Shown one piece after another: positions 22,277-56,112 of a stretch of 64,000 nt of DNA; the first letter of the stretch is position 1, and each line of letters starts with the position of its first letter. The translations under genes and the position numbers were made by a program. The notes below the pieces were generated by a model. It was not told the origin of the DNA and ran no database searches. It saw nothing but the letters and a program-made list of their open reading frames with translations. The DNA is from Mustelus asterias (Eukaryota), in contig NW_027590179.1 in assembly GCF_964213995.1 (NCBI RefSeq), forward strand, positions 310,001-374,000, read 5' to 3'.

Positions 22277-23455
22277 TCACTCGTGAACTTGTTGATGTCT
22301 CAGCAGCTGGGATGAAACTGTGAATCCCTTCCCACACTGAGAGCAGATGAATGGCCTCTCCCCAATGTGAACTCGCTGGTGTGTCCGCAGGCTGGATGAC
22401 TGAGTGAATCCCTTCCCACACTGAGAGCAGGTGAACGGCCTCTCCCCAGTGTGAACTCGCTGGTGTGTCCGCAGACTGGATGACTGAGTGAATCCCTTCC
22501 CACACTGAGAGCAGGTGAATGGCCTCTCCCCAGTGTGAACTCGCTGGTGTTTCTGCAGGCTGGATAACTCAATGAATCCCTTCCCACATTGAGAGCAGGT
22601 GAATGGCCTCTCCCCAGTGTGAATTCGCTGGTGTGTCTGCAAGTGGGATGACTGCGTGAATCCCTTCCCACACTGCGAGCAGATTAATGGCCTCTCCCCA
22701 GTGTGAACTCGCTGGTGTGTCTGCAGGCTGGATAACTGCGTGAATCCCTTCCCACACTGCGAGCAGATTAATGGCCTCTCCCCAGTGTGAACTCGCTGGT
22801 GTGTCTGCAGGCTGGATAACTGAGTGAATCCCTTCCCACACTGCGAGCAGATTAATGGCCTCTCCCCAGTGTGAACCCGCTGGTGAGTCAGCAGGTTGAT
22901 TGACCGAGTGAATCCCTTCCCACACTGAGAGCAGGTGAACGGCCTCTCCCCAGTGTGAACTCGCTGGTGTATCTGCAGCTGGGATGACTGAGTGAATCCC
23001 TTCCCACATTGAGAGCAAGTGAATGGCCTCTCCCCAGTGTGAACTCGCTGGTGTGTCCGCAGGTGGGATAACTGAGTGAATCCCTTCCCACACTGAGAGC
23101 AGGTGAATGGCCTCTCCCCAGTGTGAACTCGCTGGTGTCTCTGAAGGTGGGATGACTGAGTGAATCCCTTCCCACACTGAGAGCAGGTGAATGGCCTCTC
23201 CCCAGTGTGAACTCGCTGGTGTGACTGCAGGCTGGATGACCGAGTGAATCCCTTCCCACACTGAGAGCAGGTGAACGGTCTCTCCCCAGTGTGAACTCGC
23301 TGGTGTGACTGCAGGCTGGATGACAGAGTGAATCCCTCCCCACACTGAGAGCAGGTGAACGGCCTCTCCCCAGTGTGGCTGCGCCGATGAGCTTCCAGCA
23401 GAGATGGGGCTCTGTATCTCTTCCCACAGTCCCCACATTTCCATGGTTTCTCCAT
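22277..23455 (-). CDS. KRAB-less tandem C2H2 zinc-finger protein (copy A), 392 aa, 14 fingers
   Basis: ATG in ACCATGG context ([12 protein letters not shown]), 14 x 28-aa repeats with TGERP linkers; acceptor 23806; exon 1 donor 25742. Confidence 0.92.
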
Positions 23456-25119
23456 GGTGCAGGTGTCCTTGCCTCTCTCTTGGGTGGACAATCAGTTGAA
23501 GCCTCGTCCACACACAGAACACGGGTACCGTCTCTCCCCGCTGTGAATGGTGTGATAGTTATTCAGGCTGTGTAACTGGTTAAAGCTCTTTAGTCAGTGC
23601 ACTGGAACACTCTCACTCGGGTGTGGCAGTGTGTTGGTGCTTTTGCAGTCACACTGATGTTTGAAATCTTTTCAAATCAACAGACTGGACAATCATTTCT
23701 CCTTCTCGATTCAAAGGCCGATGATATTCAGCTCCCATGGAATATGACTCTGTCAGATCGAGACGTGACGTTTGAGATTTTGGCCTGTGATTCCTCTTTC
23801 AATATCCTGTAAAACGAGTTCACAAAAGTCATCAGTGTCAGTACAGGATAGAAATTCAGAACAGACAATTCTAGTTTCTATGGAACATTCTTTCCTCTCT
23901 CATTCCCCAAAAGCTGTGAATCTCCATCCCACACACTCTCCCTCCATTCTCACTCTGCTGTATCTAATATTCACCCTCCCAATTCTCCTGAAGGTGCTGA
24001 TTGATGCTGATTGACAGATCCATGCTCACTGCTTCCTGTCCTGGACACAGAGACCAGAACAAATAGGAGTTGCAGTCGGCCATTTGGCCCATCGAGCCTT
24101 TTAAACTATTCAATGAGATAATTTGTTCATCTCCCTCAGCATTATTGTCCCCACACTAAACCCATATCCCTTGATATCTTCAATATCTAGAAACCAATCA
24201 ATCTCTCTCTTGAAAATAGTTGATGACTGAGGTTTCACTGTCCTCAGGGGTTGAGAATTCCAAAGCTTTACCACATCCTTGAGTGAAGAAATCCCCCCAC
24301 ATATTAGCTTTTGCTCCATCCTCTTGTCTGTTCCCCATAACCCTTGACACCCTTGTCAGTCAAAAATCTGTCTAACTGGAATATATTCAATGATCCTCAT
24401 CCTCAACTGGTTCCTGTGGAAGAGAAATCCAAAAGACTCACAACCCTCTGAGGGAAGAGATGTCTGGAAATATATAACGTAGCAACAGTTCCATATTACA
24501 AGATATTCAGATCCCAAGGAATATGACTCTTTCTAGATTTGACGGTTGAGATTTTTGCCTGTGATTCCTCATTCAAAATCCTGTGAAATGAGTTTACAAA
24601 AGTCATCACAGTCAGTATAGGATAGAAATTCAGAGCAGACAATTCTAGTTTCTATGGAACATTCTTTCCTATTTCATTCCCAAAAAGTTGTAAATCTCCA
24701 TCCATATCTATGGATTCTATTTAAAAATGAAAGTGGATGGGCACTTGAAGGAAATAAACTTTCAGGAGAATGGGGATAGAGAGTGGGAATGGGACTGGAA
24801 TGTTATACAGAGAGTCAGCATGGACTCGAGTTACCGAATGGATTCCTTCTGTGCTGTAATGGGCTTTATGACTGGAAATGTATAACATCGCTACAGCATT
24901 ATATTACAATGCAAGAAATAATAATAAAAGTATTTTATTACAGAAACATAAATAATATATCTAATCTGGGTACCTTATAACAACACTAGACATATCTCTG
25001 TCCTATATTAACGTAAATGTCAGCCATCTCCTGGGGCAAGCTGCCCTTTAATTGTGAACATTAGAAAAAAGACCATCCTTTTAGACAGACAAATAAATGT
25101 GTCAAGCTGAGGGAGCAAA

Positions 25120-25605
25120 GGATGTTTACCAGGCTGATTCAGGGAATGGCGGGACTGATATATGAGGAGAGACTGACTCGGTTAGGATTGTTTTCGCTGG
25201 AGTTCAGATGAATGAGGGGGGATCTCATAGAGACTTATAAAATTCTAACAGGTCGAGACAGGATAGATGCAGGGAGGATGTTTCTGATGGTGGGGGGAGT
25301 CCAGAACCAAGGGTCACAGTCTGAGGATTCAGGGTAGACCATTTAGGACAGAGGTGAGGAGACGTTTCTTCACCCAAAGAGTGGTGAGTCTCTGAAATTC
25401 ATGACCACAGGAAGTAATTGATGCCAAAACATTGAATGTATTCAAAAGCATCTAGATATAGCACTTGGGGCAAATGGGATCAAAGGTTATGGGGAGAAAG
25501 CAGGATTAGACTATTGAGTTGCTTGATCATCCATGATCTTAATGAATGGCAGAGCAGGCTCGAAGGGCCAAATGGCTTCCTCCTGCTCCGATCTTCTATG
25601 TTTCT
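25120..25605 (+). mobile_element. CR1 3' fragment in ZNF A intron
   Basis: RGDLIETYKIL-type sequence and CR1 3' UTR. Confidence 0.8.
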
Positions 25606-25736
25606 CTTAAATTTCTTTAAGAGAGAGAGACCTGGGCCAACCTTTCCTGAGTCTGCACTCTCCCCGGATTCACTTCCTTTTCCTTCAGTTGTTGCAATTC
25701 TCCAATTACCCCCAGAATGAGAAAAGAAAGTGTTTT

Positions 25737-26305
25737 ACTCACAGATGTTGGCCTCTTTTAGGTTGAGACTGAAGGAAGTTTGAGTCTGTCTGAAGCTCAA
25801 TCTTCATGCACACAAAGCCCGCGCTCTGATTGGCTGGAGGACCACGGTCTTTCCGGTCCTCCAAGTCTTCCCATTGGCCAGAGCTGGTGAGCGGAAGTGA
25901 ATCAGAAGTGCGCATGTGCGGGTTTTGGGGGAATGCGCATGTGCGGGTGTGGGGCGGGGCCCGGGACACAGCCGGCGCACTGACCATTGTCTGTCTGGGT
26001 CTTCCAGCCTTTCCAATTGGACAACAGCTCAGCGCGGCTGGAGGGCAAAGTCCCGCCCACCCCACGTGGGGCTCCGCCCCTCATTGTCTGTCTGCGTGGG
26101 ATTGACCAATGGGAACTCTGGAGGACCGGAAGGCCTCTGATCCTCCAGCCAATCAGAGCTCCCACATTGTCTGAATGCGGATGTTGGACAATGAGCTTGT
26201 TCAACTGCTCATTCCTGCCCAGCGAAGCTGCTGCTGCTCTTTCTCTGAATGAAGATTGAGCTTCAGACAGGCTCAAACTTCCTTCTGTCTTCAACATCTG
26301 TGAGT
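25737..26305. promoter_or_regulatory. Bidirectional CpG-rich promoter with two mirror-image first exons (ZNF A and B)
   Basis: CCAAT boxes on both strands, GCGGAAGTG (ETS), two TGCGCATGTGCG (NRF1-like), GGGGCGGGGC; outward-facing GTGAGT donors at 25742 and 26300. Confidence 0.8.
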
Positions 26306-26379
26306 AAAACACTTTCTTTTCTCACCCTTTCCATTTTGTTTCTCATTCTGGGGGAAATTGTTGACTTGCAGCAACTGAT

Positions 26380-27905
26380 CACGAGAAATAGAAACAGGAG
26401 CGGCCACCAGGCCCTTGAAGCCTGTCCCGCCATTCAATCCGATCATAGCTGACTGATGCCGGTTTCAACTCCTTTACTGTGCCATTTCCCCATAGCCCTG
26501 TATTCCCCGATCTATCAAATATGTATCCCCCTCCACTTTAAATACTTCTAACGATCCAGCCTCCACCACCCTTTGGGGCGGGGAATTCCAGAGCTTCATC
26601 ATCCTCGATGAGAAGAAATTTCTGCACACCTCAGTTTTAAATGACTGACCCTTTATTTTGTTTGAGACTCTCCCACTCGTGACAATATCTCACCATCTAC
26701 CCTGTCAAGCCCCCTCAGGATCTGAAATGTTTCAATAACTCCCTTGTCTTCAAAACTTCAAGGAACACAGACCTTGACAATTTACTCCCTCTTGATAGGA
26801 CAACCCTCCTATCCCAGGAATTAGCCTGGTGAATTTCCTTTGGACTATGTCCAATATTACTATATCCTTGTTTAGGTAAGGGGATCAAAACTGTATGCAC
26901 TATTCCAGGTGAGGCATCACCAACACACTGTACAGTTGCAACAAAACCTCCCTGTTTTTAAACTCCAACCCCTTTGCAATAAAAGCCAAAATGCCATTTT
27001 CCTCCTTAACTCGTGTGGGACCTGCCTGCTCGCTTTTTGTGATTCATGCACAAGAACACCAAGATCCCTCTGTACTTCACTCACCGGCAGCCTCTCTCCA
27101 TTTAGATAATCTCCCTGTTGATTCCTCCTACTGAAATACATGACCTCACACTTCCCCACTTTAAACTCCATTTGCCAGGTTTAGAAGACAGAGGGGTGAC
27201 TTTATTGCATCTTCCCCAACTCTCGACTTATCTTTCCCGGCCCTATCCCTGTAGCCCTACATTTTTACCCCACTAATCCACCTAATCTACATCTATTGGG
27301 ACACAAAGGGGCAATTTAGCACGGCCAATCAGTCTAACCTGCACATCTTTGGACTGTGGGAAGAACCTGGAGAACTCAAAAATCCACACAGACATGGAGA
27401 GAATGCGCATACTCCACACAGACTGTCACCCAAGGCCGGGATTGAACCTGGGTCCCTGGCACTGTGAGGCAGCAGTGCTAACCACTGTGCTGCCATGGCA
27501 CCATATCTAAATAAACTACAGATTTCTTGCGATCTACCCTCCTTCTTATATCCTCAAACAATTCAAGCAAATTTGTCAAACATAATTTATCTTTCTTAGA
27601 ACCATGTTGACGAGGTTTGATTGTATTCAGCTTTCCTAAATGATTAGCTATTTGCTCTTTGATTATTGACTCCAGCGTCTTGCCAATAATAGATGTTAAA
27701 TTAACTGGCCTATAGTTCTCTGCCTTCTGCCTTTCTCCCTTTTTGACCAAGGTAGTCACATTGGCTGATTGCCAATCTTCTGATACTCTCCCGGAATCTA
27801 GCAAGTTACAAAAAATTTCAACAAAATTCTCCACTATCTCTTCAGCAACCTCCATTAAAAAGCTGGCACGCAGTTCATTGGGTCCTGGTGATTTGTCCGC
27901 CCTTA
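26380..27905 (-). mobile_element. Decayed CR1 LINE in ZNF B intron, interrupted by a SINE at about 27235-27497
   Basis: ENYRPVNLTS and DLGVLVHES motifs; intron similarity to the paralogs resumes at 27910. Confidence 0.85.
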
Positions 27906-28448
27906 GTCACTGAAGGGAAAGGAAGTGAGTCCAGTCTATATAATCCATACATTTTTGGTCCAGTCATATAGACATAGATCTGTCTGGCAGCCTGCATGGG
28001 GATTTCCAGCTCTCTGTGTCCAGGACAGGAAGCAGTGAGCATGGATCTGCCAATCAGTGCCTTCAGGAGAATTGGGAGGGTGAATATTAGATACAGCAGA
28101 GTGAGAATGGAGGGAGAGTGTGTGGGATGGAGATTCACAACTTTTGGGGAATGAGAGAGGAAAGAATGTTCCACAGAAACTTGATTTGTCTGTTCGGAAT
28201 TTCTATCCTGTGCTGACACTGATGACTTTTGTAAATTCCTTTTACAGCATATCAGAAGGTGAGAATTTACAGACAGAAATCTCAAACCAAACGTCACATC
28301 ACCATCTGACAGAATCACTCAATTTATCGGGGCCTGAATATCACTGACCTTTGAATCTAGAAGGGGAAATGTTTCTCTGTTCTGTCAGCTTCTGAAGATT
28401 TTAAGTATCTGTGTGACTGGAAAAGCACCAAGACACACACACACCTGA

Positions 28449-28556
<108 letters not shown>

Positions 28557-28604
28557 TGAGATTTAACTGATTGTTTAAACTACAGAGTCACAAGGACCCG
28601 AACC

Positions 28605-29277
28605 ATGGGGAAACCGTGGAAATGTGGGGACTGTGGGAAGGGGTACACGTGCCCATCTCGGCTGGAAATTCATCAACGCAGTCACACTGGGGAGAGGCCC
28701 TTCAGCTGCTGTGTGTGTGGAAAGGGATTCACTCAGTCATCCGAACTGCGGACACACCAACTAGTTCACACTGGGGAGAGGCCATTCACCTGCTCTGTGT
28801 GTAGGAAGGGATTCACTCAGTCATCCAGCCTGCAGAAACACCAGCGAGTTCACACTGGGAAGAAGCCATTCACCTGCTGCGTGTGTGGGAAGAGATTCAG
28901 TCAGTTATCCAACCAGCAGAGACACCAGCGAGTTCACACTGGGGAGAGACCATTCACCTGCACTGTGTGTGGGAAGGGATTCACTCAATTATCCACCCTG
29001 CAGACACACCAGCGAGTTCACACTGGGGAGAGACCATTCACCTGCTCTCAGTGTGGGAAGGGATTTATTGCCTCATCCAGTCTGCAGACACACCAGCGAG
29101 TTCACACCGGAGAGAGGCCATTCACCTGCCCGAAGTGTGAGAAGGGATTCACTAACTCATCCAGCCTGCGGACACACCAGCGAGTTCACACTGGGGAGAG
29201 ACCATTCACCTGCTCTGTGTGGAAAGGGTTTCAGCGTTTCATCCCGGCTGCTGAGACACCAGCAAATTCATGAGTGA
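28605..29277 (+). CDS. KRAB-less C2H2 zinc-finger protein (copy B), 7 fingers plus frameshifted 8th
   Basis: [12 protein letters not shown] start; 2-nt loss in a TG run near 29218; shifted frame ends [12 protein letters not shown] at 29277; acceptor 28247. Confidence 0.85.
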
Positions 29278-30513: not shown

Positions 30514-30607
30514 ATGGCCAGTGAAAAATCAGAGCTCAAGTGGGGACTGGACAGGTCTCTTACCTGCCATTTGGAAACTAAGAACAAGAAACATATCGAT
30601 TAAAATG

Positions 30608-30790: not shown

Positions 30791-31134
30791 GATAAAATGA
30801 TTAGTTCTGATTGGAATCCCCACGACCCTCCCGCAAAACAGAGGGAGTGGTGGCAGAAGGAGATAAAGGATAAAAAGGAGATAAAGGGTTTAAAATCGGA
30901 GGTTTTTTTCAAAACCGGAAGTAGGGCCAGGAGAGGCCAGGGGAAGTTTTTGGAGGGTTTAAAAGTGCACCAAAGTATACAGCGGGCAGCATCGTAGCGG
31001 GCAGCAGAGTGAGTGGGAAGTTGAGTGAGCTGTCAGGGCTTTGGCTCACAGGGCTTGGACGAGCAGGGGTGAGTTTTTGTTTCCTTACACTCTTATTAAC
31101 TTTTCACTGTCTTACTTGACATAAAGTGTCCAGT

Positions 31135-32059
31135 ATGAGTGTGAAACCAGTGTGCTGTTCCCAGTGTAGGATGTGGGAGGTCCTGGAGGCATCTGGCCTC
31201 CCGGACATCCACATCTGTGAGGGGTGTGTCGAGCTGTGGTTCCTGAGGGACCGTGTTAGGGAGCTGGAACTGCAGCTCGAGGATCTTAGGCTGATGAGGG
31301 AGAATGAGGAGGTGATAGACAAGAGCTATCATCAGGTGGTCACACCAGGGCCACGGGAGGAGGCCAAGTGGGTGACGGCCAGGAAGGGTAAGGCTAGGGT
31401 GGTTGAGAGCACCCCGGTGGATTTGCCCCTGCACAACAAGTACTCCTGCTTGAGTACTGCTGGGGGGGACAGCCCGCCTGGGGGAAGCAGCAGTGGCCGT
31501 GTCTCCGCAGTGGAGTCCAGCCCTGTAACTCAGAGGGCTAAGGAAAAGAGGAAGGCGGTATTAATCGGGGACTCGATGGTGAAGGGGACAGAGGCGTTTC
31601 TGCGGAGGTAGGCGGGATTCTCGCATGGTGGTCTGCCTCCCTGGGGCCGGGATCCAGGATGTCGCTCGTCGCGTCCCGGAAATCCTGAGGTGGGAGGGAG
31701 AGGAGCCTGAGGTAGCGGTACATATTGGTACCGCTGATGTGGGTAGGAAGGGAGAAGGGGTCATGAAAAAGGAGTACAGGGAATTAGGGAGACAGCTGAG
31801 AAAGAGGAAAGCAAAGGTAGTAATCTCAGGATTACTGCCTGTGCCACGGGAAGGTGAGGGCAGGAATGGAGTGAGGTGGAGGATGAATGTGTGGCTGAGG
31901 GACTGGTGCAGGGGGCAGGGATTCAGGTTCCTGGACCATTGGGACCTCTTTAGGGGCAGGGGTGATCTGTATACAAAAAACGGGTGGAACTTGAATCACA
32001 CGGGGACCAATATCCTGGCCGGTAGGTTGGCTAAGGCTACTGGGGAGAATTTAAACTAG
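31135..32059 (+). pseudogene. CR1 ORF1 (Cys4 zinc finger, coiled coil, SGNH esterase), one frameshift
   Basis: CSQC..CEGC, VRELELQLEDL, IGDS, frameshift near 31590, CLPGA, HIGTAD, GWNLN. Confidence 0.9.
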
Positions 32060-32064
32060 ATAGG

Positions 32065-35000
32065 TTGGGGGGAGGGGAGCTAGAAGAGTTGACCAGGATC
32101 AAGGAACTAATTGATGGGGGGGAGGATGCAGGGGAAAGGGGAATTACAAAATTAATGGTAGAGGAGAGGGTGCAAGTGAATGAAGGCGGTAATTTAGAAA
32201 AGGGAGTAGAGGGAGAGGGTGTTCGCGACTCATCAAAGCGGGTCCAGATAAAAGCTGGAATAAGGACACTTTGCCTGAATGCACGAAGCATTCGGAACAA
32301 GGTAAATGAGTTGATGGTGCAAATCAGCACAAGTGGGTACGATCTAGTGGCCATTACAGAAACGTGGCTGAAAGGTGACCAGGACTGGGAGATGAATATC
32401 CAGGGGTATCAGGCGTTTAGGAAGAATAGACAGGAAGGAAAAGGTGGTGGGGTCGCGCTATTAATAAGAGATAATATCAGGGTAGTACTGAGGGATGACA
32501 TAGGCTCTGAGGAACAAAACGTGGAATCATTATGGGTAGAGATGAGGAATAGTAGAGGGAGAAAGACACTAGTAGGTGTGGTATATAGGCCCCCAAATAA
32601 TAATGTTGAGGTAGGGAGGGCTATAAACAAGCAGATAAGGGATGCGTGTAAAAACGGAACGGCAATAATCATGGGGGACTTCAACATGCACATTGACTGG
32701 CAGACTCAAGTCAGTAAGGGTGGAATGGAGGAAGAGTTCTTAGAATGCTGTCGGGATAGTTTCCTTGAACAGCATGTTACGGAACCGACGAGGGAACGAG
32801 CTATTTTGGATCTGGTATTGTGTAACGAGGTAGGTAGAATTAAGGATCTTATTGTGAAGGACCCTCTTGGGTCTAGTGACCACAATATGGTCGAATTTCT
32901 GATTCAGATGGAAGAGGAGAAAGTTTGGTCCCAAACCAGTGTCCTCTGTTTGAACAGAGGGAAATATGATAGGATGAGGGATGAATTGGCTAAGGTAGAC
33001 TGGGAGAGCAGGCTGGCAGGTAGGATAGCTGAGGAACAGTGGAGGATTTTTAAGGAGATCCTTTTCAGTTCTCAGCAAAAATATATTCCAGCAAAAAACA
33101 AGGATTGTAAGAAAAGGGAGAACCAGCCGTGGACAACGAAGGAAATAAAGGAGAGTATTAAAATAAAAACAGCTGCGTACAGAGTGGCCAAAAATAGTGG
33201 AGAAACAAGTGATTGGGAAAAATTTAAGAAACAACAAAGAGAGACTAAGAAAGCGATAAAGAAAGGAAGGATAGACTATGAAGCTAGGCTAGCAATTAAT
33301 ATAAAAAATGATAGAATCATAGAATCCCTACAGTGCAGAAGGAGGCCATTCGGCCCATCGAGTCTGCACCGACCACAATCCCACCCAGACCCTACCCCCA
33401 CATATTTTACCCGCTAATCCCTCTAACCTACGCATCTCAGGACTCTAAGGGGCAATTTTAAACCTGGCCAATCAACCTAACCCGCACATCTTTGGACTGT
33501 GGGAGGAAACCGGAGCATCCGGAGGAAACCCACGCAGACACGAGGAGAATGTGCAAACTCCACACAGACAGTGACCCGAGCCGGGAATCGAACCCGGGAC
33601 CCTGGAGCTGTGAAGCAGCAGTGCTAACCACTGTGCTACCGTGCCGCCCAAATATAAAAGTTTTTATAAATATATAAAAAGGAATAGAGTGGCTAGAGTG
33701 AATGTTGGACCCTTGGAGGACGAGAGGGGGGAGTTAATAGTGGGAAATGAGGATATGGCTGAGTCTTTAAATAAGTTTTTTGTGTCGGTCTTCACGGTGG
33801 AGGACACAAATAGTTTGCCAAATATTAACGATAGAGGGTTGGCAGCAGGAGAAATACTTAATACAATTAATGTTACCAGAGAGGCAGTGCTGGGTAGACT
33901 AATGGGACTGAAGGTGGACAAGTCCCCGGGTCCGGATGGAATGCATCCCAGGGTATTGAAAGAAATGTCAGAGGTAATAGAGGATGCGTTAGTGATTATT
34001 TATCAAAACTCGTTGCATTCTGGGGTAGTGCCGGTTGATTGGAAAACGGCTAATGTTACGCCGCTGTTTAAAAAAGGAAGGAGACAAAAGGCGGGTAACT
34101 ATAGGCCGGTCAGCTTAACGTCTGTAGTAGGGAAAATGCTGGAATCCATTATTAAAGAGGAGATAGCAGGGCATCTGGATAGAAATGGTTCGATCAATCA
34201 GACGCAGCATGGATTCATGAGGGGAAAGTCGTGCTTGACGAACATGTTGGATTTTTATGAAGATGTGACTAGGGCGGTTGATGGAGGAGAACCGGTGTTT
34301 TTGGATTTCCAAAAGGCGTTTGATAAGGTGCCCCATAAAAGGCTGCTGAAGAAGATTAGGGCACACGGAGTTGGGGGTAGTGTGTTAAAGTGGATTGGGG
34401 ACTGGCTATCCGACAGGAAGCAAAGAGTCGGAATAAATGGGTGTTTTTCCGGTTGGAGGAAGGTAACTAGTGGCGTGCCGCAGGGATCGGTACTCGGGCC
34501 GCAACTGTTTACCATTTATATAGATGATCTGGAGGAGGGGACGGAGTGTAGGGTAACAAAGTTTGCAGACGACACAAAGATAAGTGGAAAAGTGAATCGT
34601 GTGGAGGACGGAGAAGATCTGCAGAGAGATTTGGACAGGCTGAGTGAGTGGGCGAGGATATGGCAAATGGAGTATAACGTTGAGAAATGCGAGGTTATAC
34701 ACTTTGGAGGAAATAATAACAAATGGGATTACTATCTCAATGGAAACAAATTAAAACATGCTACTGTGCAAAGGGACCTGGGGGTCCTTGTGCATGAGAC
34801 GCAAAAGCCCAGTCTGCAGGTACAACAGGTGATCAAGAAGGCAAATGGGATGTTGGCCTATATTGCGAAGGGCATAGAATATAAAAGCAGGGATGTCTTG
34901 ATGCACCTGTACAGGGCATTGGTGAGGCCGCAGCTGGAATACTGTGTGCAGTATTGGTCCCCTTATATGAGGAAGGATATATTGGCATTGGAGGGAGTGC

Positions 35001-35401
35001 AGAGAAGGTTCACCAGGTTGATACCGGAGATGAGGGGTTTGGATTATGAGGAGAGGCTGAGGAGATTGGGTTTGAACTCGTTGGAGTTTAGAAGGATGAG
35101 GGGGGATCTTATGGAGACTTATAAGATAATGCGGGGGCTGGATAGGGTGGAGGCGGAGAAATTCTTTCCACTTAGTAAGGAAGTTAAAACTAGAGGACAC
35201 AGCCTCAAAATAAAGGGGGGTCGGTTTAAGACAGAGTTGAGGAGGAACTTCTTCTCCCAGAGGGTGGTGAATCTCTGGAATTCTCTGCCCACTGAGGTGG
35301 TGGAGGCTACCTCGCTGAATATGTTTAAAGCGCGGATGGATGGATTCCTGATCGGTAAGGGAATTAAGGGTTATGGGGATCAGGCGGGTAAGTGGTACTG
35401 A
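32065..35401 (+). pseudogene. CR1 ORF2 (APE endonuclease plus RT) interrupted by a SINE
   Basis: LNARS, ITETW, GDFN, SDHN; RT GVPQGSVLGP, FADD; SINE at 33311-33649. Confidence 0.93.
33311..33649 (-). mobile_element. Full-length HE1-type SINE
   Basis: GGGCGGCACGG head, GGTTCGATTCC B box, GATTCTAT tail. Confidence 0.92.
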
Positions 35402-35889
35402 TCCACGTCAGATCAGCCATGATCTTATTGAATGGCGGGGCAGGCTCGAGGGGCTAGATGGCCTACTCCTGCTCCTATTTGTTATGTTCTTATGTTCTTA
35501 TAAGGATGATAAAGTCTGGGTTCTGATTCTCATGTAGAACTAACAAAACGAATGAATCAGTTTATAAAGAACAGAAGTGACCCATCCCTAACAAAAACTG
35601 ATCAAATTAAAATAATTCGGTTGAGGAAGAAAACAAAAAGAATAATAGATGAAGTTTAAAATTAAGATTGTTTTGTTGTTAGAGATTTTTTAAATTATGT
35701 AAAGTGATGTAATTGTGTGCCAAGTTTTTTTCTGCTCACTCCCCACCCCTTTAGGTTCAGTAGAAAAGTTAATTTGTTTTTAAATCGCCCGGAAACTTAT
35801 GTCTATTTTGCTTTATAATTGAGGATTTATGGGAACCAGTTAAATGTGGAAATTTTAAGCATAGCCACTAAGACCATATTTGCTTGCGG

Positions 35890-38725: not shown

Positions 38726-39568
38726 TCACTTGTGAACTCGTTGGTGTCTCCGCAGGCTGGATGACTGAGTGAATCCCTTCCCACACACACAGCAGGTGAA
38801 CGGTCTCTCCCCAGTGTGAACTCGCTGGTGCTCCTGCAGGTTGGATGACGTTCTAAATCTCTTTGTGCAGTGAGAGCAGCTGAACGGTCTCTCCTCAGTG
38901 TGAATGCGCTGGTGGATAACCAGATCCCGAGAACTTTTGAAACCACTGCCACAGTCAGAGCATTTAAAGGGTCTCTCCTGAGTGTGAGTGAGATTGTGAC
39001 TCAGCAGGCTGGATGAATGAGTGAATCCCTTCCCACACACAGAGCAGGTGAATGGTCTCTCCCTGGTGTGAATTCGCTGGTGCTCCCGCAGGTGGGATGA
39101 TGTACTAAATGTCTTTGTGCAGTGAGAGCAGCTGAACGGTCTCTCCCCAGTGTGAATGCGCTGGTGGATCATCAGTTCCCGAGAGCTTTTGAAACCATTT
39201 CCACAGTCAGAGCACTTAAAGGGTCTCTCATTGGTGTGAGTGACTTTGTGTTTTGACAGGTTGGATAACTGCATAAATCCTTTCCCACACACCAAGCAGA
39301 TGAATGGTCTCTCTCCAGTGTGAACGCGCTGGTGTCTCTGCAGATCAGGTAAATGAGCGAATCCGTTCCCACACTCAAAGCAGATGAACGCTCTTTCTCC
39401 AGTGTGAACCAGTCGATGTCGCTGCAGATGATATAACCGAGTGAATCCCTTCCCACACACAGAACAGGTGTGCGGCTTCTCTCCAGTGTGAATACGTCGA
39501 TGAATTTGCAGCTCAGAGGGGGTTTTGCAACCCTTCCCACAGTCCCCACATTTCCACAGTTTCTCCAT
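38726..39568 (-). CDS. KRAB-less C2H2 zinc-finger protein (copy D), 280 aa, 10 fingers
   Basis: [12 protein letters not shown] start, 10 x 28 aa, open frame; acceptor near 39942; exon 1 donor near 40355. Confidence 0.92.
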   Translation of the reverse strand: MEKLWKCGDCGKGCKTPSELQIHRRIHTGEKPHTCSVCGKGFTRLYHLQRHRLVHTGERAFICFECGNGFAHLPDLQRHQRVHTGERPFICLVCGKGFMQLSNLSKHKVTHTNERPFKCSDCGNGFKSSRELMIHQRIHTGERPFSCSHCTKTFSTSSHLREHQRIHTRERPFTCSVCGKGFTHSSSLLSHNLTHTQERPFKCSDCGSGFKSSRDLVIHQRIHTEERPFSCSHCTKRFRTSSNLQEHQRVHTGERPFTCCVCGKGFTQSSSLRRHQRVHK

Positions 39569-40750: not shown

Positions 40751-40990
40751 CTCTCTGCGTGGGTTTCCTCCGAGTGCTCCGGTTTCCTCCCACAGTCCAA
40801 AGATGTGCGGGTTAGGTCGATTGGCTATGCTAAATAAATTGCCCCTTAGTATCTTGGGATGCGTAAATTAGAGGGATTAGCGGGTAAAATATGTAGGGAT
40901 ATGGGGGTAGGGCCTGGGTGGGATTGTGGTCGGTGCAGACTCGATGGGCCGAATGGCCTCTTTCTGTGCTGTAGGGTTTCTATGATTCTA
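40751..40990 (+). mobile_element. HE1-type SINE lacking head
   Basis: Central domain and CTATGATTCTA tail. Confidence 0.85.
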
Positions 40991-41400
40991 TTGTCCCTCT
41001 GAAGACAGAGGTTCTGAACCAGCCCCTGAAACCACGCCCATTGTGACCCGCCACCGACAGCGGCGCATGCGCTCTCCTTCCCCGCTGAAACAAGATGGCG
41101 GCCGATAACCGGGGCCTGTTCCCGGGATAAAAGCCTGGGAGCTGTAAAGCCGGGACCTGCAGGGTCTTATTCGGGCCGTGCGGCCTACAGCGGATGTTTG
41201 TGAAGCCATAGCTCCCTCCCTACCCCGACTCCCGGCTCCATTTCTCCCGCAGCCCCACTGACTCACCCTCTGAAAAAAGCCGCTCCCGCATTCATAGGGC
41301 TCCGGGCAAAGTGACACTGCGCACGCTCCAGATATAGCACTGCGCCTGCGCAATAGGCTCCTGTGGAATGAATAGGACACTTTCACACCCGCAGGGGCAC
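40991..41400 (-). promoter_or_regulatory. CpG-rich promoter/first exon, duplicated at 62120-62550
   Basis: GCGCATGCGC 41063-41072 (NRF1), AAGATGGCGGC 41092-41102 (YY1), TGCGCCTGCGCA, minus-strand GTGAGT donor near 41266. Confidence 0.65.
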
Positions 41401-42870: not shown

Positions 42871-42874
42871 TATA

Positions 42875-43650
42875 TCCTGTGTGAATTCGCTGTTGTGTCC
42901 AAAGACTGGATGGCCCAGAAAAATCCTTCCCACACAAGGAGCAGGTGAACAATCTCTCCCCAGTGTGAACTCGCTGATGTGCACTGAGGTTGGATGAACA
43001 TGAGAACCCCTTTCCACAGGTGGAGCAGCTGAACGGCCTCTCCTCAGTGTGAATTTGCTGGTGTAACAGCAGGTGGGATGAGATAGTGAATCCTTTCCCA
43101 AACACAGAACAGATGGCCTCTCTCCAGTGTGACTGTGTCTATGGTTTTCCAGCAAGTACAGATAATTGAATCCTTTATCACAATCATCACATTTCCATGG
43201 TTTCTCCATTTTCCCAGCCCCAATGTGACCGTGTCGATGGGTTTCCAACCGGGATGGATAATTGAATCCTTTACCACAATCCTCACATTTCCACGGTTTG
43301 TCCATGGTGTTGGTGTCCTTCTGTCTCTCCAGGTTGGATGATTAGTTGAAGCCTCATCCACATACAGACCATGGTGTGATGTTTTTCAGGCTATGTAACT
43401 GGTTAAAGCTCTATCCGCAGTCAGTTCACTGGAGCACTCTCACTTGGGTGTATGTGTGTGTCTCAGTTCTTTTTCTGTCACATTGAATTTTGAAATTTTC
43501 TTCCACTGACAACACAGGGAACGATTTATCCCTCCACTGTCAAAAGCAATCATATTCAGGTCATGATGAATCGAATGGCTCTGTCAGACTTTGATGTGAA
43601 GTTTAGTTTGAGTTTCCTGTCTGTGACTCTTCCTCTTCTAGTTCCCTGCA
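42875..43650 (-). pseudogene. C2H2 zinc-finger pseudogene (copy F)
   Basis: MDKPWKC and MEKPWKC fingers, frameshift, truncated at the CR1 junction. Confidence 0.85.
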
Positions 43651-49162: not shown

Positions 49163-49472
49163 TTCATTCTTCAGTGCAGCTGCACCATGTACTCTCAAAT
49201 GTTAATTCATTCACAATTTACAAACCACTTCTGCAATCTCACATCACTGTTCCAATTTCTTATTTAATCCTCTGTTGGAGTCTCACCTTCATAAGCCATC
49301 TTCACATATTTTCCCACCTGTTAAATCTTGTCTCTCATTTTATTTTAAACGAGAGAGTGTTCTTTTGTCCTGCTTGTTGGCATCTCTCTGCCCTCTCCCA
49401 CAAATCGTTGTATTGCATTTGTGGAACATTTATCAGGTCTTTTTGGAATGTGCTGTGTATTTTACCAATCAG

Positions 49473-50343
49473 TTTCAGAGGATACAGCAGGATATAGATC
49501 GGTTGGAGACTTGGGTGGAGAGGTGGCAGATGGAGTTTAATCCGGACAAATGTGGGGTAATGCCTTTTGGAAGGTCTAATACAGATAGGAAATATACAGT
49601 AAATGGCAGAACCCTTCAGAGTATTGATAGGCAGAGGGATCTGGGTGTACACGTTCACAGGTCACTGAAAGTGGCAATGCAGGTGGAGAAGGTAGTCAAG
49701 AAGGCATACGGCATGCTTGCCTTCATCGGCTGGGGCATTGAGTTTAAAAATTGGCAAGTCATATTGCAGTCTTATAGAACCTTAGTTAGGCCACACTTGG
49801 AATATAGTGTTCAATTCTGGTCGCCACACTACCAGAAGGATGTGGAGGCTTTGGAGAGGGTAAATAAAAGATTTACCAGGATGTTGCCTGGTATGGAGGG
49901 CATCAGATATGAGGAGAGGTTGGAGAAACTTGGTTTGTTCTCAGTGGAACGACGGAGGTTGAGGGGCGACCTGATAGAAGTCTACAAGATTATGAGGGGC
50001 ATGGACAGAGTGGATCGTCAGAAGCTTTTTCCCAGGGTGGAAGAGTCAATTACTAGGGGGCACAGGTTTAAGGTGCGAGGGGCAAGGTTTAAAGGAGATG
50101 TATGAGGCAGATTTTTTACAGAGGATGGTGGGTGCCTGGAACTCGTTGCCGGGGGAGGTAGTGGAAGCAGATACGATAGTGACTTTTAAGGGGCGTCTTG
50201 ACAAATACATGCACAGGATGGGAATAGAGGGATATGGTTCCGGGAAGGGTACAGGGTTTTAGTTAAGTCGGGTAGCATGGTCGGTGCAGTCTTGGAGGGG
50301 CCGAAGGGCCTGTTCCTGTGCTGTACTTTTCTTTGTTCTTTGT
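49473..50343 (+). mobile_element. 5'-truncated CR1/HER1 LINE
   Basis: QRIQQDID..LVRPHLEY..RGDLIEVYKIM; CTTTGTT tail. Confidence 0.92.
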
Positions 50344-52316
50344 TCAGTTTCGTCATCCTGGATTTCACTGTCTTACAAAGGATGCACCGTTCAATAAATC
50401 TATCAGAATCTTCAGAAGAAAGTCTAAAGTCAGCGTTGAAGGGCTTCTTCATCTCAGTGTCTTATTTCCTCCTGTACAATCATAATGCCTCAGATGGTGA
50501 CTAGATTATCAAATTCAGTTCTCTCAAATAGTTCATGGACAAAGAAACAAATATCTCTAAGAGAAAACTGTCACCTCATTCATCTCATCTGGAATTTCCT
50601 TTCACTCAAATGTTCATAAACACCCAAATGTATGGATTCCTTTAAACTACACTTTCAGGAGTTCTGGAGAATGTTTAGAGTCAAATAAATCATGAAATAT
50701 TCTCATAATGTCTTTAAACTGAAACCAAACATTTCTGTTTGATTCCAGGCATTATAAATTTTGTTCTTTCCCTTAAACATCAGGTAAATTTCAGTTCAAA
50801 TGCTTGAAATAGCAACTCATGTCAGATATTTATCAACTGCAATAATCAAAAGCAGGCTTGGTGGTTTCCTGTAAAGTCTTTTATTCTCTGCTTTCATTCT
50901 CAAAACTGCTGACTTCACTCAGAGCTGGAAACCATCATCACCTGTTTAAAAAAACACAAACAATCCATCTGGCTCTGGCAGGATCCCAGTGAGTTAATGT
51001 GTCCAATCATAGGTTACATTAAAAAACAAAGGCTGTGTGGAGATTTATAAAAATCAACTGTCTACGTTTCTGTCGAACCTGGAGAGGTGGGGAGAGGAAA
51101 CTTGGCAATTGTGTCAATTTACATAATTTTAAAAATCTTCTCTCGGGTTATTTTCTTCTATTTTGCTCAAATTTCATCTCTTTTCTCTATCGTTTTTTGA
51201 ACACCAATTTCAATTTTCAATATTTGCTACTTAAAGTTGAAAGAAATACTTTGTGAAATATGTTGTTAACCGAATCTCAACAATTTTAACTCAGATGTTT
51301 TGGAAAGTTGGAACTGGTTTGCTGCCAAACTGCAGCCTGATCTTTGTGTTTTGGGAGCAAATTGGCCTTCACAATTCTAACCTTGAACAACTTAATTTCA
51401 AACCCAAATACATTCCTTTCACATTGTGGTACAGTCTGAATTTATTTCAAACAGAAACACACGGCAGTTCAAATTAAATCAATTTTTATTTCCTTTCCAA
51501 ACTAATTCTTCGAATCGATGATGCTTTCAAACAACGCCCTGCTTCAACAATTATGACTCAAATGTACAGTATTCCTTCAACTGGGCAAACAAACTTGGAG
51601 TAAGTGGTGCAAAAGTCATGGCTACCCTCACACACCGGCATTCCCTTATCACACAGGAGAGGCAGAGGAGAGGGAGGAGTGCTTTCAGTGGTCCTGGTTT
51701 TGGAGAAAACAACAACATCTGCTCGTTGGTGACTGATTTGTGTCTCAGGTTGTTTGATTTTAGCTGAACACGGAGAGGTCTGCTTCAGGGAGGTGTCTCT
51801 TTGTGGCTGAATTAACTTCCTCAAAGTCCCCACGGCATCTTCGAACTCTTCACTTGATCTGATATTTTCTGACTGTAAATCAATATCTTGTTCCAGAGTT
51901 TGGCCGAACAGCAGTAGATTGTTCTGAGCTCCACTCACCCTATCATCTGCCCCCTGTTCCCAATGTAACTAATTGCTGGCAGGAGAGCACGTCTGTCCTG
52001 GACAATCAGTTCCATTCTGCAGCTTATCTACCTGAACTCTGTATTTTTTCTCAACTATCAGGCACACAGATATGCACTGCAGTTCAACTTATTCTGGACT
52101 TTTCCAACTCTCTGTTTCCTTTCTGAACCATTAGAAAACCTTTCAAGGATCTGCTCGTAATCTCCGTCACATTCTTCGACAGCTCCCAGGACATCATTTG
52201 GTCCTGGGATTCCTGTCTCCACTGTCAAACTCTCTGTCAGTCTCATTCTGGCATATTCCAAAGCCATTGTTATCTTTGTTTTTGTGAGGCAGCAGTGCTG
52301 CTAACGTGGCATCAGG

Positions 52317-52733
52317 TAGCACGTTGGCACAGTGGTTATCACTGCTGCCTCACAGCGCTAGGGACCTGGATTTAATTCCAGCCTTGGGTGAGTGTCTGTG
52401 TGGAGTTTTCACATTCTCCCCGTGTCTGTGTGAGCTTCCTCCGGGTGCTCCAGTTTCCACCCACAAACCAAAGATGTGCAGGTTAGGTGGATTTGCAATG
52501 CTAAATTCCCTCTTAATGTCCCAAGATGTATAGGATAGATAGGTTAGCCATGGTAAATGTGTGAGATTACAGGATTTGCTACCAAATAAACCTGTTGGAC
52601 TTTAACCTGGTGTTGTTAAAACTGACTGAGATTACAGGATAGGCAGGGGAGAGGGCCTGGGTAAGATGCACTGTTGAGAGTCGGTGCAGACTGGATGGTC
52701 CGATGGCCCCTTCTGCACTGGAGGGATTCTATG
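52317..52733 (+). mobile_element. HE1-type SINE carrying a 51-bp Penelope fragment
   Basis: Insert 52576-52626 flanked by exact TSD TGAGATTACAGGAT. Confidence 0.88.
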
Positions 52734-55521
52734 AACACAGAAGTGGTCAGAATCACTTCACATATCCCAAATTTTAAATAGCCATCACAATTAAAACTCT
52801 CTCATGTTCACATGTGTGAGTTTGAATCCAGATTAAAACTCTTACAGGTTTAGCAAAGTCTCCTGGAATCATATCTCCAGTCAGTAAATCTGGCTCCAGG
52901 TTCACAACTTTTGTGAAAAAAAAGCTTTAGTAATTACACGTCCTTTATTTAAATCTGTTTGATTTAAATCACAGATGGAAAACCTCAAAACTTGAAGCAT
53001 TCAACCCACAAATATCATCCACACACAAACAGAGAAACTTAGCATGTGCTTTACAACAACAATAACCAGAATGAATTCCTTAAGTGTTCTTGTGGTTCTG
53101 TTTTTAAACTTCCAGAAATGCCTTTAATTAAAGACTCAAGATAAGGTTAGTTCCCTTGAAAGATAAACCTTAACAAATGGAGCCCAAAACAATGATAAAA
53201 CACATCTACAAAATCCACATAAAACAAACAAAACACACAAGTTCTCAATTTCATTTCAAACAATGAATCCTCAGCATTCTCTCTCGCAGCTATAGCTTCT
53301 TAAAGCAACAGAGCACTACAAGCTCACAACTCCTTGATTAAAATAAGATACAAGATCCTTCATTATAACTTAACCTTTTTAAGCCAATTTCCAAGGCCTG
53401 ATTTTATAAGCAACATCGAGTCTTTTCAAACACATTCCAAACACATTACCACCTGCAAAATCTTTGTTCTTTATCTGGGGTTGAGGTGACAACACAAAAT
53501 TCTCACAATTATTCCAAATTCCTCCAGGCTTAAAATTTCCTCATTTAACTGGTTCCCATAAATCCTCAAATATAAAATAAAATAGACACACCCAGGTGAT
53601 TTAAAAACAAATTAACTCTGCTGAAAGGGTTAACTTCTCTACAGTCTAAAGTGGTGGGGAGTGAGCAGAAAAAACTTGGCACACAATTACGTCATTCACA
53701 TAATTTTAAAAAACTTACGCAACAACGAAACAAACTTCATTTTAAACTTCATCTCTTGTTTTTTTTTATATTCCTCAACCTTATTATTTTAATTTGATCA
53801 GTTCTTGTTTGGGATGGGAATTTCTGTTCTTTATAAACTGGTTCACTCGTTTTGTCAATTCTACCTGGGCTCGGAGAATCAGAACCCAGACTTTATCATC
53901 CTTATCTTTTTTCTCCTTTTGCCACCACTCCCTCTGTTTTGCAGGAGGGTCGTGGGGATTCCAATCAGACCAAATCATTTTATCATAAAAGTAAAATACT
54001 GCGGATGCTGGAATCTGAAAGAAAAACAGAAAATGCTGCAAGATCTCAGCAGGTCTGACAGTATCTGTGGAGAGAGAATAGAGCCAACGTTTCGAGTCTG
54101 GATGACCCTTTATAAGAGCTCTTGTGAAGTGTCATTCAGAATCAAAACGTTGGCTCTATTCTCTAATCATTTTATCGCTAAGCTTCTTGTTCTTAGTTTC
54201 CAAATGGCAGGTAAGAAACCTTCTGGTATCCACTCGAGCTCTGATTTTTCACTGGCCATGCTTGGGTAAGATTATAACCATTAGAATCTACTCTCAGAGG
54301 TCTGCTTTTCAGTCCAGTGCTACTTGGATTATACCGTCACGTCGTTGACTCACGGGTCACAAGTCCCTCACAGTTCTCATCACAAATTGGTGATAAGTTA
54401 AGCAATGCCTCAGAATGCTTCTTAACTTCTTAACCAACTACCGAACACCATTTGTTGATTGGTCAGACCCCCTTTTTGCAGATTCGGGTATCTTAGCCGC
54501 TGAACACCAGCCGATCGTGGAATAAGTTTAATTCTAACTTATTCTGAGTAAATATTCTCACCAGGTCCTCTGTTGGGGCCCTGCTAAGCAGCTTTAATGG
54601 TCCGTGATTGCAGAAACTGAGCAGTCACAGGAATGTGGTCAAGATAGTCCAGTCCCATAATGCCTCACATTCAATCTGCAGTCCTTCAATTATAACAGAA
54701 TATGTGGCTGTATGTAGCTGCCTCGGCCATGGTCAACCCCAACACTGCCTTCCTGATTCTGTACTCCCATAGTGCCATTAGGGAGGGAGAATGTAGGTGG
54801 ACACCAGATTGATATATTCCATTCAACCACACCCAAGGTGAGTTATTCCAATTCCTTTATTGTCCAGGACAATATATTCACAATACATTCTTTAAAACAG
54901 AAATTAAACATTCTCATTTGATTTCAGGTATTAACATATTCTGTTACTTTGTTCTTTATTGTCAATGTCAGGCTGGGGTTGTTCCCCTTGGAGCAAAGGA
55001 GGTTGAGGGGAGATTTGATAGAGGTGGACAAGATTCTGACAGATTGAGATAAGGTGGACAAAGAAAAGCTGTTCCCATTAGCTGATGGGACAAGGACGAG
55101 GGGGCGCAGATTTATGGTTTTGGGTCAGAGATACAGGGGGGATGTGAGGAAGAATATTTTGATGCAGTGAATGGTAATGACCTGGAACTCGCTGCCTACG
55201 AGGGTGGAGGAAGTGGAGACAATAAACAATTACAAAGGAAATTGGATGGGCATTTGGGAGGTTTCAAACAAAAATGCTGACTAAATATCTCTGAACTTCC
55301 TCACACCCGGTCACTCTGTGATCCTTGTGAAATCTGAAACCAGGTATTCGCAACAAGACTCAAAGAGCATCAGCCCACTGGAGGCAAAGTCATGAGACCG
55401 GCCAGTCCAGCAGAAAGAAACCCTCTGACCCTCCCCATTGACCAACTGTGAGAATGAACAGAATGCAGTCCTGGATGTAATTGAGAGCAGAAACAGTAAC
55501 AGGAGAATCCAGCCCCTGTAA

Positions 55522-56112
55522 TCACTCGTGAACTTGCTGGTGTGTTCGCAGGGTAGATAAAACTCTGAATCCCTTCCCACACTGAGAGCAGGTGAACGGT
55601 TTCTCCCCAGTGTGAATTCGCTCATGTGTCCGCAGGTGGGATGACTGAGTGAATCCCTTCCCACACTGAGAGCAGGTGAATGGCCTCTTCCCAGTGTGAA
55701 TTCGCTCATGTCTCCGTAGGCTGGATAAGTGAGTGAATCCCTTCCCACACTGAGAACAAGTAAATGGCCTCTCCCCAGTGTGAACTCGCTCGTGTGTCCG
55801 CAGGCTGGATAAGTGAGTGAATCCCTTCCCACACTGAGAGCAGGTGAATGGCCTCTCCCCAGTGTGAACTCGCTGATGTGTCCGCAGGTCAGATGACAGA
55901 GTGAATCTCTTCCCACACTGAGAGCAGGTGAACGGCCTCTCCCCAGTGTGAACTCGCTGGTGTCTCTGCAGGTTGGATAATTGAATGAATCCCTTCTCAC
56001 ACTGAGAGCAGGTGAATGGTCTCTCCCCAGTGTGGTTGCGCCGATGAGCTTCTAGCTGAGATGGGTATCTGTATCTATTCTCACAGTCCGCACATTTCCA
56101 TGGTTTCTCCAT
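55522..56112 (-). CDS. KRAB-less C2H2 zinc-finger protein (copy C), 196 aa, 7 fingers
   Basis: [10 protein letters not shown] start in ACCATGG context, 7 x 28 aa, open frame. Confidence 0.92.

What the first reader, a model, noticed from the sequence alone, without database searches (positions are those of the whole stretch)
22277..56112. KRAB-less zinc-finger cassette family diverging fastest in the fingers
Seen: A and C have closely similar introns and flanks, yet 14 versus 7 fingers and different recognition helices (first finger RAPSLLEA vs RYPSQLEA, last TVSSQLLR vs RVLSTLRT) on a near-invariant [16 protein letters not shown] frame. A shows recent 84-bp duplications (fingers 8-10, 12-13). 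Four ORFs and two pseudogenes occur in 50 kb; the proteins are fingers only. Known: this birth-death pattern typifies transposon-silencing KRAB-ZFPs of tetrapods. Inference: an elasmobranch effector-less analogue, possibly a transposon-recognition repertoire, next to an antigen receptor region.
Basis: partly seen in the sequence, partly recalled or inferred. Interest (0 to 1): 0.72.

Follow-up and report, generated by a model that had tools for sequence, protein, structure and literature searches.

The report
Shark fingers-only zinc-finger gene repertoire
These shark genes belong to a family of thousands of copies that carry zinc fingers but no known silencing domain and whose DNA-reading positions evolve faster than neutral DNA, so they likely form a fast-changing sequence-recognition repertoire, probably aimed at jumping genes, although neither targets nor partner proteins have been tested.

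Summary
The window holds four C2H2 ORFs (14, 7, 10 and 7 fingers) and two pseudogenes. They are a slice of a family with 2,691 exact start-motif matches in this genome and relatives in sharks and a skate.

An in-frame stop 12 codons upstream of the ATG (1,010 of 1,110 comparable starts) and a leader of decayed fingers block an upstream coding exon. No effector domain was found in flanking frames.

Across 439 internal fingers, omega is 1.69 at helix positions -1/+3/+6 (14 neutral simulations: 0.85-1.16), 0.62 in the framework and 0.03 in the zinc core. Position +6 is robust; -1 and +3 depend on the model. Genes also vary by 84-bp gain or loss, swapped 3' ends and segmental duplication. Finger 1 has diversifying contact residues on an unusually conserved scaffold, a candidate cofactor handle.

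Transposon targeting, repression and expression are untested. The family is genome-wide, so the nearby TCR V segment is probably a co-duplicated neighbour. This scan reported the family before on other DNA. Verdict: new variant of a known kind.

The parts
22277..23455 (-). Gene A coding sequence: MEKPWKC start, 14 C2H2 fingers, stop two codons after the last His; 392 aa
23456..23806 (-). Gene A 5' leader within the finger exon: predicted splice acceptor (exon begins 23806), decayed fingers, in-frame TGA at 23494-23492, Kozak-type ACCATGG
   Evidence: sequence
24502..24703 (-). Second, duplicated copy of the acceptor region inside the A intron (87% to 23723-23929); also present in C
25718..26324 (.). 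Predicted bidirectional promoter between head-to-head genes A and D: two inverted copies of a candidate non-coding first exon ending in a GTGAGT donor (25742 on -, about 26300 on +), 80% identical over 100 bp; GC 0.58
   Evidence: promoter role inferred
28605..29273 (+). Gene D: 7 whole fingers, frameshift in finger 8; its leader keeps one Pfam-recognisable finger at 28464-28526
38726..39568 (-). Gene B: 10 fingers of a more divergent subfamily with a 252-bp three-finger repeat; same in-frame upstream TGA
40990..41400 (-). CpG-rich candidate promoter / first exon upstream of B, 92% identical to 62141-63051 upstream of C; no Pfam domain in its frames
42876..43305 (-). Pseudogene F: duplicated first finger (96-bp unit), frameshift after finger 2, truncated by a LINE fragment; an intact relative lies just beyond the window (L040)
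55522..56112 (-). Gene C: 7 fingers, 196 aa, A-type 5' flank
13597..15140 (+). Pseudogene E: decayed cassette with frameshifts and stops
6017..6514 (-). Neighbouring antigen-receptor V segment (TCR alpha/delta type by recalled motifs): leader exon, V-set exon, CACAGTG heptamer, 23-nt spacer, ACAAAAACT nonamer

Best explanation
These are members of an elasmobranch family of thousands of C2H2 genes predicted to encode finger-only proteins, whose base-contacting residues are under diversifying selection; they likely act as a sequence-recognition repertoire against transposable elements and probably recruit any partner through the conserved first finger. SHOWN: the reading frame starts in a former finger linker (TGEKP became MEKP) behind an in-frame stop and a leader of decayed fingers. 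New specificities arise by point change at helix -1/+3/+6, by 84-bp finger gain or loss, by exchange of 3' halves between paralogues and by multi-kb segmental duplication. INFERRED: that the proteins are made and bind DNA (from purifying selection on the fold and on the EKP start); that the targets are transposons (by analogy with KRAB- and FiNZ-ZNFs); that finger 1 is the cofactor surface (from its extra constraint). The alternative is that binding alone blocks transposon promoters.
For: Fingers only: stop exactly 12 codons upstream in 88 of 117 sampled starts, and a stop within 64 codons in 117 of 117, while the acceptor lies about 117 codons upstream; 1,010 of 1,110 genome-wide. No KRAB, SCAN, BTB or similar hit among 92 upstream and 90 downstream sense-strand frames of 36 aa or more (the other 3 of the 185 frames were scanned). 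KRAB profile: 8 matches among 76 candidates, 7 on C20 and 1 broken on C19, none on the window's contig or on C12, C16, C23 or C71. Translation from MEKP: omega 0.02 on the E-K-P codons; purine at -3 with G at +4 in 114 of 117. Selection: 439 unique internal fingers give contact 1.69, framework 0.62, linker 0.35, core 0.03; per site -1 1.43, +3 1.55, +6 2.17. Neutral simulations with tree re-inference gave 0.93-1.07 (8 runs) and with conversion tracts 0.85-1.16 (6 runs). On a tree built from non-coding flank only (34 genes), finger-1 contact codons change 3.5 times per site, against 0.61 in the adjacent fossil fingers and 1.0 at third positions. Mosaic genes: 5' flanks 2-6% apart carry 3' ends up to 50% apart, and the 3' data reject the 5' tree (delta lnL 347). 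Finger 1: contact omega 1.9; K(x) 0.00, P+1 0.10, S+2 0.09, E+5 0.16, R 0.18, against 0.7-1.5 at the same sites in finger 2 and the last finger. The signature recurs in Heterodontus, Pristiophorus, Scyliorhinus, Cetorhinus, Chiloscyllium, Mustelus and Amblyraja records. Literature: ZNF and retroelement counts correlate across animals independently of accessory domains (PMC10547256, passages).
Against: Nothing here shows what the fingers bind, and positive selection at contact sites is expected for any moving DNA target. With site-specific synonymous rates the contact class falls to 1.40 (p=0.003), and -1 (1.06) and +3 (1.12) are not above 1; only +6 (2.18) and the non-contact +5 (1.93) are. 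Among the youngest finger pairs (2 nt or fewer apart, 73 edges) the contact class is 1.14 (p=0.64); the excess grows with pair distance (1.64 at 4 nt or fewer, 2.20 at 6 or fewer). The last finger's excess over 3' UTR was not significant (p=0.08). Only 75 of 117 starts lead to a clean array of 5 or more fingers (5 were cut by locus ends). The conserved finger-1 sites were picked after looking at the data, and their constraint could serve folding or DNA-backbone contact. A C-terminal exon added by splicing was checked only by Pfam on nearby frames.
Confidence: 0.5

Rival explanations
1. Same finger-only, positively selected repertoire, but the moving targets are not transposons: satellite or centromeric repeats, viral DNA, meiotic sites, or regulatory DNA of the immune and ZNF clusters themselves.
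For: The selection results do not identify a target. The genes are interleaved with V segments over about 10 Mb of C71, and shark MHC-Ia-like genes also sit among ZNF copies (PMC10751288). Drosophila ZAD-ZNFs expand without appearing to target TEs specifically (PMC10547256).
Against: The family also clusters on C12, C16 and C23, where none of the 150 listed V matches lie. The two vertebrate precedents with functional data, KRAB and FiNZ, both act on transposons (PMC10547256, abstract and passages).
Confidence: 0.22
2. Mostly passenger expansion: the cassettes multiply because they lie in duplication-prone, repeat-rich DNA, and finger diversity comes from unequal crossover plus relaxed constraint, with little adaptive meaning.
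For: Twelve loci match the A region at 95-98% over most of 8-10 kb, with flanking repeats co-duplicated. The V segment is multiplied in the same contigs. Many starts lead to broken frames. Framework omega is a weak 0.62, and the youngest pairs show no contact excess.
Against: Core omega is 0.03, with 0 non-synonymous changes seen against 30 expected in the youngest pairs. Contact omega exceeds all 14 neutral simulations, including those with conversion. Fossil-finger contact codons in the leader changed 1 time in 10 sites against 21 in 6 for finger 1, so sequence context does not explain the excess.
Confidence: 0.1
3. The proteins are not really effector-less: an uncharacterised domain is added by splicing, either at the C-terminus from a donor near the last finger or at the N-terminus through an acceptor in the 36 nt between the stop and the ATG.
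For: No full-length transcript was seen. AG dinucleotides exist between the stop and the ATG, and a GT overlaps the stop codon. An unknown domain would escape Pfam.
Against: The Kozak context and the EKP codons are conserved. The stop falls within two codons of the last His in 75 arrays. There are no meaningful Pfam hits in 90 downstream frames. Among 15 longer homologues, the 13 elasmobranch records list no KRAB, SCAN or BTB accession; of the four whose non-finger parts I printed, three look like retroelement or intergenic read-through and one (skate) is unassigned.
Confidence: 0.12

Closest known systems
KRAB zinc-finger proteins of tetrapods (young mouse clusters, PMC12575710, passages read)
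   Same: Single finger exon with TGEKP-type linkers, clustered paralogues, growth by segmental duplications that carry transposons along, fingerprint diversification, pseudogenes.
   Different: No KRAB exon. The upstream exons appear non-coding and an in-frame stop blocks N-terminal fusion. The start codon sits in a former linker. TRIM28 recruitment and TE binding are shown for KZFPs but not here. KRAB-domain families are reported as lost in cartilaginous fishes (PMC8455134, passage).
Cyprinid FiNZ-ZNFs (Wells et al. 2023, PMC10547256; abstract, passages, part 2 of the main text, two supplement files)
   Same: Non-KRAB, lineage-specific vertebrate ZNF expansion (684 genes in zebrafish), clustered near immune genes, with positive selection at base-contacting residues in some clades. 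The paper's table counts ZNF ORFs in shark genomes (S. canicula 3,586; C. carcharias 1,851; A. radiata 1,223).
   Different: FiNZ-ZNFs carry a 28-aa acidic N-terminal domain on its own exon and have knockdown evidence for TE repression; this family has no N-terminal domain. The main text has no occurrence of shark, chondrichth-, Scyliorhinus or cartilaginous.
Actinopterygian KRAB-like ZNFs with TRIM33 (PMC11603059, passages)
   Same: Proposed TE control by ZNFs in a lineage without canonical KRAB/TRIM28.
   Different: They depend on an N-terminal KRAB-like domain; none is in frame here. TRIM33 is only a candidate partner to test.
PRDM9 finger array (minisatellite-like evolution recalled; PDB matches)
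   Same: Near-identical 84-bp units with changes concentrated at -1/+3/+6 and finger gain or loss.
   Different: No PR/SET, SSXRD or KRAB domain, and thousands of genes rather than one or a few.

Membership tests
KRAB-ZFP | N-terminal KRAB-A domain on an upstream coding exon | tested here: not met
   In-frame stop upstream of the ATG in 117 of 117 starts; no KRAB in 92 upstream frames; genome KRAB matches only on C20 and C19
KRAB-ZFP | Tandem C2H2 array with TGEKP-type linkers in one exon | tested here: met
KRAB-ZFP | Clustered birth-and-death evolution by segmental duplication | tested here: met
KRAB-ZFP | Positive selection at helix -1, +3, +6 | tested here: met
   Class omega 1.69 against 0.85-1.16 in nulls; +6 robust, -1 and +3 model-dependent; +2 not elevated (0.78)
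KRAB-ZFP | Sequence-specific binding to transposable elements | not testable with these tools
   Needs ChIP or DAP-seq; no motif prediction was run
KRAB-ZFP | TRIM28 recruitment and H3K9me3 silencing | not testable with these tools
   Needs IP-MS and reporter assays
FiNZ-ZNF | 28-aa acidic FiNZ domain on an upstream coding exon | tested here: not met
   No upstream exon can be in frame through the conserved acceptor; no FiNZ profile search was run
FiNZ-ZNF | Expression at zygotic genome activation and TE derepression on knockdown | not testable with these tools
   No run on record as RNA was listed
PRDM9 | PR/SET methyltransferase domain with KRAB and SSXRD | tested here: not met
   No such domain among listed hits on A, B, C or in flanking frames

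The most novel reading that the evidence does not exclude
Sharks and rays run a genome-defence system of more than 2,500 zinc-finger proteins with no separate silencing domain: the first finger itself doubles as DNA reader (diversifying -1/+3 residues) and as a fixed docking surface (MEKP-W-K...D...PS-x-LE-x-H-x-R) for a corepressor, making it a third vertebrate solution beside KRAB-TRIM28 and FiNZ.
Probability: 0.25. Interest if true: 0.8.

Novelty: new variant of a known kind. Interest (0 to 1): 0.5.

Why it matters
It is an open question how vertebrates without KRAB/TRIM28 use their large ZNF expansions. Sharks have one of the largest repertoires, counted in a supplement of PMC10547256 but not described in the papers I could find. 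Here the proteins appear to be fingers only, yet they show arms-race-type selection. That narrows the mechanism to occlusion by binding, a partner docked on a finger, or an unseen spliced exon. The short, conserved first finger gives a 32-residue bait for a direct test.

Tried and rejected
Expression: no RNA holder listed (all candidate RNA runs were guesses and held at most 0.21 of the words). Contigs of six such runs were laid on the A and B upstream regions. Several pieces end near the predicted acceptor (23802-23811) and one X1 contig joins 23748 to 25664, but no DNA run was laid as control and repeats dominated the joint tables, so this is not used as evidence.

Selection on the upstream stop itself: not supported. 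It is 92-94% conserved against a mean of 84% for neighbouring leader positions (74th-87th percentile).

A mobile cassette: shared boundaries differ between subfamilies and the closest copies share flanking repeats, which fits segmental duplication. I did not run a dedicated search for terminal repeats or target-site duplications.

The long CpG-rich frames upstream of B and C (MASQTSAVGR...) have no Pfam hit and cannot join the finger frame through the conserved acceptor.

A TCR alpha constant-domain profile (PF09291) found nothing, so the V segment could not be placed relative to a constant gene. An SSXRD search found nothing, so the C20 KRAB-like exons remain unassigned.

My first CpG-corrected count over-weighted CpG-creating changes and was replaced. 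The two-rate fit failed to converge for the contact classes and was replaced. One search crashed and was rerun. The AU test used too few replicates, so only the likelihood difference is quoted.

No structure, complex or binding-motif prediction was run. A paper I recalled on shark Ig/TCR loci was not held under the DOI I tried.
Full report
ANATOMY. Six-frame scanning finds four open C2H2 arrays and two decayed ones: A (23455-22277, minus, 14 fingers), D (28605-29273, plus, 7 fingers and a frameshifted eighth), B (39568-38726, minus, 10), C (56112-55522, minus, 7), and pseudogenes E (about 13.6-15.1 kb) and F (43.3-42.9 kb, cut by a LINE fragment). A and C share intron and flanks at 92% over 2,144 bp. 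The quoted helices are correct. Fingers 8/9 and 12/13 of A differ by 1 and 3 nt of 84; finger 10 is 5-6 nt from 8 and 9. A and D are head to head around a GC-rich stretch with two inverted copies of a candidate first exon and donor. Three further CpG-rich candidate promoters lie upstream of B, F and C (CpG o/e 0.74-0.79 against 0.40 for the window). Promoter and exon roles are inferred from sequence.

FAMILY. The 761 bp upstream of A has 40 full-length matches, itself included, at 95% or more among the 40 scored of 4,254 candidates. The 21-nt start motif occurs 2,691 times (control 0); the first 100 listed places fall mainly on C12, C16 and C23, and a stricter pattern runs through 3.8-17.2 Mb of C71. 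I fetched 39 A-like loci, one stretch beside the window and 60 stretches from the listed motif places, so the sample is biased towards A. Twelve loci match the A region at 95-98% across most of 8-10 kb including repeats, so A lies in a recent segmental duplication; these copies carry 10-14 fingers. Homologues come from Pristiophorus, Heptranchias, Heterodontus, Cetorhinus, Scyliorhinus, Mustelus, Chiloscyllium and Amblyraja (11 of 13 and 15 of 16 candidates passed). Non-elasmobranch hits were weaker and lack the first-finger signature. Some hits may come from the window's own assembly and are not counted as independent.

FINGERS ONLY. The finger exon begins 351 nt before the ATG. That leader translates as decayed fingers, and the ATG occupies the G of a former TGEKP linker. 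An in-frame stop sits exactly 12 codons upstream in 88 of 117 sampled starts and within 64 codons in all 117; genome-wide it is present in 1,010 of 1,110 comparable starts. An upstream exon spliced to the conserved acceptor therefore cannot add a domain. The start has a purine at -3 and G at +4 in 114 of 117 cases, and the E-K-P codons have omega 0.02, which indicates they are translated. Pfam finds no effector in 92 upstream or 90 downstream sense frames; the hits were D's fossil finger and three sub-threshold matches. The KRAB profile matches 8 places among 76 candidates, on C20 and C19. Some shark paralogues keep the preceding finger intact (P0005, P0006, P0016, P0020, P0022), consistent with the MEKP form being a 5'-decayed derivative. 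A spliced C-terminal extension, or an acceptor within the last 36 nt, is not excluded without cDNA.

SELECTION. I fitted an MG94-type codon model of my own with a shared synonymous rate to 439 unique internal 84-nt units from the 75 clean arrays (of 117 starts). Omega: contact (-1,+3,+6) 1.69; +2 0.78; other helix 1.01; framework 0.62; linker 0.35; zinc core 0.03. Per site: -1 1.43, +3 1.55, +5 1.35, +6 2.17. Simulations with neutral contact sites and tree re-inference gave 0.93-1.07 (8 runs) and, with conversion tracts, 0.85-1.16 (6 runs). A CpG-calibrated count on spanning-tree neighbours gave 1.14 (73 edges of 2 nt or fewer, not significant), 1.64 (120 edges of 4 or fewer, p=0.006) and 2.20 (191 edges of 6 or fewer). 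On a tree built only from non-coding 5' flank (34 A-like genes), codon positions 1+2 of finger-1 contact sites changed 21 times in 6 sites. The comparators were 98 in 160 for the adjacent fossil fingers, 1 in 10 for the fossil fingers' own contact codons and 21 in 21 for third positions. Against this: with site-specific synonymous rates only +6 and +5 stay individually above 1, and the last finger is weaker (1.41, LRT 4.4). Conclusion: diversifying selection on the recognition helix is well supported as a class, firmly at +6 and less firmly at -1 and +3.

SHUFFLING. Fourteen representative genes whose 5' flanks differ by only 2-6% have largely different fingerprints and at least two unrelated 3' ends (45-50% apart). 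The 3' data need 282 steps on the 5' tree against 155 on their own. Recombination inside the arrays therefore joins different front and back halves.

FINGER 1. It differs from A's internal fingers at 31-35 of 84 nt. Its -1 and +3 sites diversify (omega 1.9 and 2.9), so it is not simply a constant module. Yet K before the first Cys, D, P+1, S+2, E+5 and the R between the histidines have omega 0.00-0.21, against 0.7-2.6 in finger 2 and the last finger and 0.7-2.4 in the penultimate finger (55, 57, 53 and 52 unique fingers). Non-contact omega overall is 0.49 against 0.78-0.81. This fits a finger that reads DNA and also carries a conserved surface. The sites were chosen after inspection, and a folding or backbone role is not excluded. 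PDB matches are ordinary C2H2 proteins. Earlier notes of this scan proposed this finger as a handle; I ran this test after reading them.

IMMUNE NEIGHBOUR. The V segment at 6514-6017 has a leader, an open V-set exon and a 23-spacer recombination signal; the alpha/delta assignment rests on recalled motifs. Thirty-nine near copies (80% identity or more, itself included) lie among the 150 scored matches, many on the contigs that carry A-like genes, and related V segments span 6.5-17.4 Mb of C71. TCR alpha/delta-type V exons outside the main translocon are described in sharks (PMC12227049, passages), as are ZNF copies around MHC-Ia-like genes (PMC10751288, passage). Co-duplication explains the proximity without a functional link; such a link is untested.

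LITERATURE. Wells et al. 2023 (PMC10547256: abstract, passages, part 2 of 9 of the main text, hits in two supplement files; files 3-5 were not searched and could hold shark analyses) argue that ZNF expansions track transposons irrespective of accessory domain, and list shark ZNF ORF counts. I read passages only of PMC8455134, PMC11603059, PMC10751288, PMC12575710 and PMC12227049; other papers were seen only as search listings. Nine searches returned no title or abstract opening that describes this shark family, its fossil-finger leader or its selection pattern; subscription journals are mostly not covered. The scan itself has noted the family in this and other genomes; those are unchecked notes and not independent support.

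VERDICT. The family works like KRAB- and FiNZ-ZNF repertoires in architecture and evolution but is a member of neither. Shown: finger-only frame, family size, duplication and shuffling, contact-site selection. Inferred: translation, DNA binding, transposon targets (about 0.5), finger-1 cofactor docking (about 0.25). New variant of a known kind; interest 0.5.

Noticed in passing
window 6017-6514 (-); G000 C71 and many small contigs: Intact TCR-type V segment with 23-spacer RSS, multiplied with the ZNF cassettes; V(D)J rearrangement could delete or invert neighbouring ZNF genes in T cells if this lies within the rearranging locus (idea also in note e1-9597341).
   Followed up: partly
window 25718-26324: Head-to-head genes A and D share a region with two inverted copies of the same candidate first exon and donor, with NRF1-like and ETS-like motifs (labels recalled).
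   Followed up: partly
L101 1462-1830 (G000:C20 about 1.39-1.71 Mb); L107: Seven KRAB-profile matches in a tandem array on C20, with a finger exon about 20 kb downstream of one; resembles PRDM9-type KRAB (recalled), but the SSXRD search was blank. A tandem PRDM9-like expansion is possible.
   Followed up: partly
window 43124-43305 (-); L040: The first finger is duplicated as a 96-bp unit, giving two MEKPWKC-type starts; in the intact relative L040 the first copy has a stop, so the start has moved one unit downstream, repeating the family's origin by 5' decay.
   Followed up: partly
window 30886-35500 (+) and 11069-12994 (+): A long LINE with GDSL-esterase-like ORF1, endonuclease and RT pieces, interrupted by a SINE at about 33.3-33.65 kb, inserted in the 3' flank that D shares with C; a second long RT frame lies at 11069-12994.
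   Followed up: no
window 57705-59028: Element with 266-bp inverted arms (92%) and Penelope-like frames (label recalled; no Pfam hit) inserted at the point where A-C homology ends.
   Followed up: no
window 63480-64000; 10020-10211; 20008-20289: Minisatellites of 36, 19/56 and 87 bp period.
   Followed up: no
P0001: A Pristiophorus annotation joins a histone H2A domain to a family ZNF, probably an annotation fusion of neighbours, which hints that histone genes lie in these clusters.
   Followed up: no
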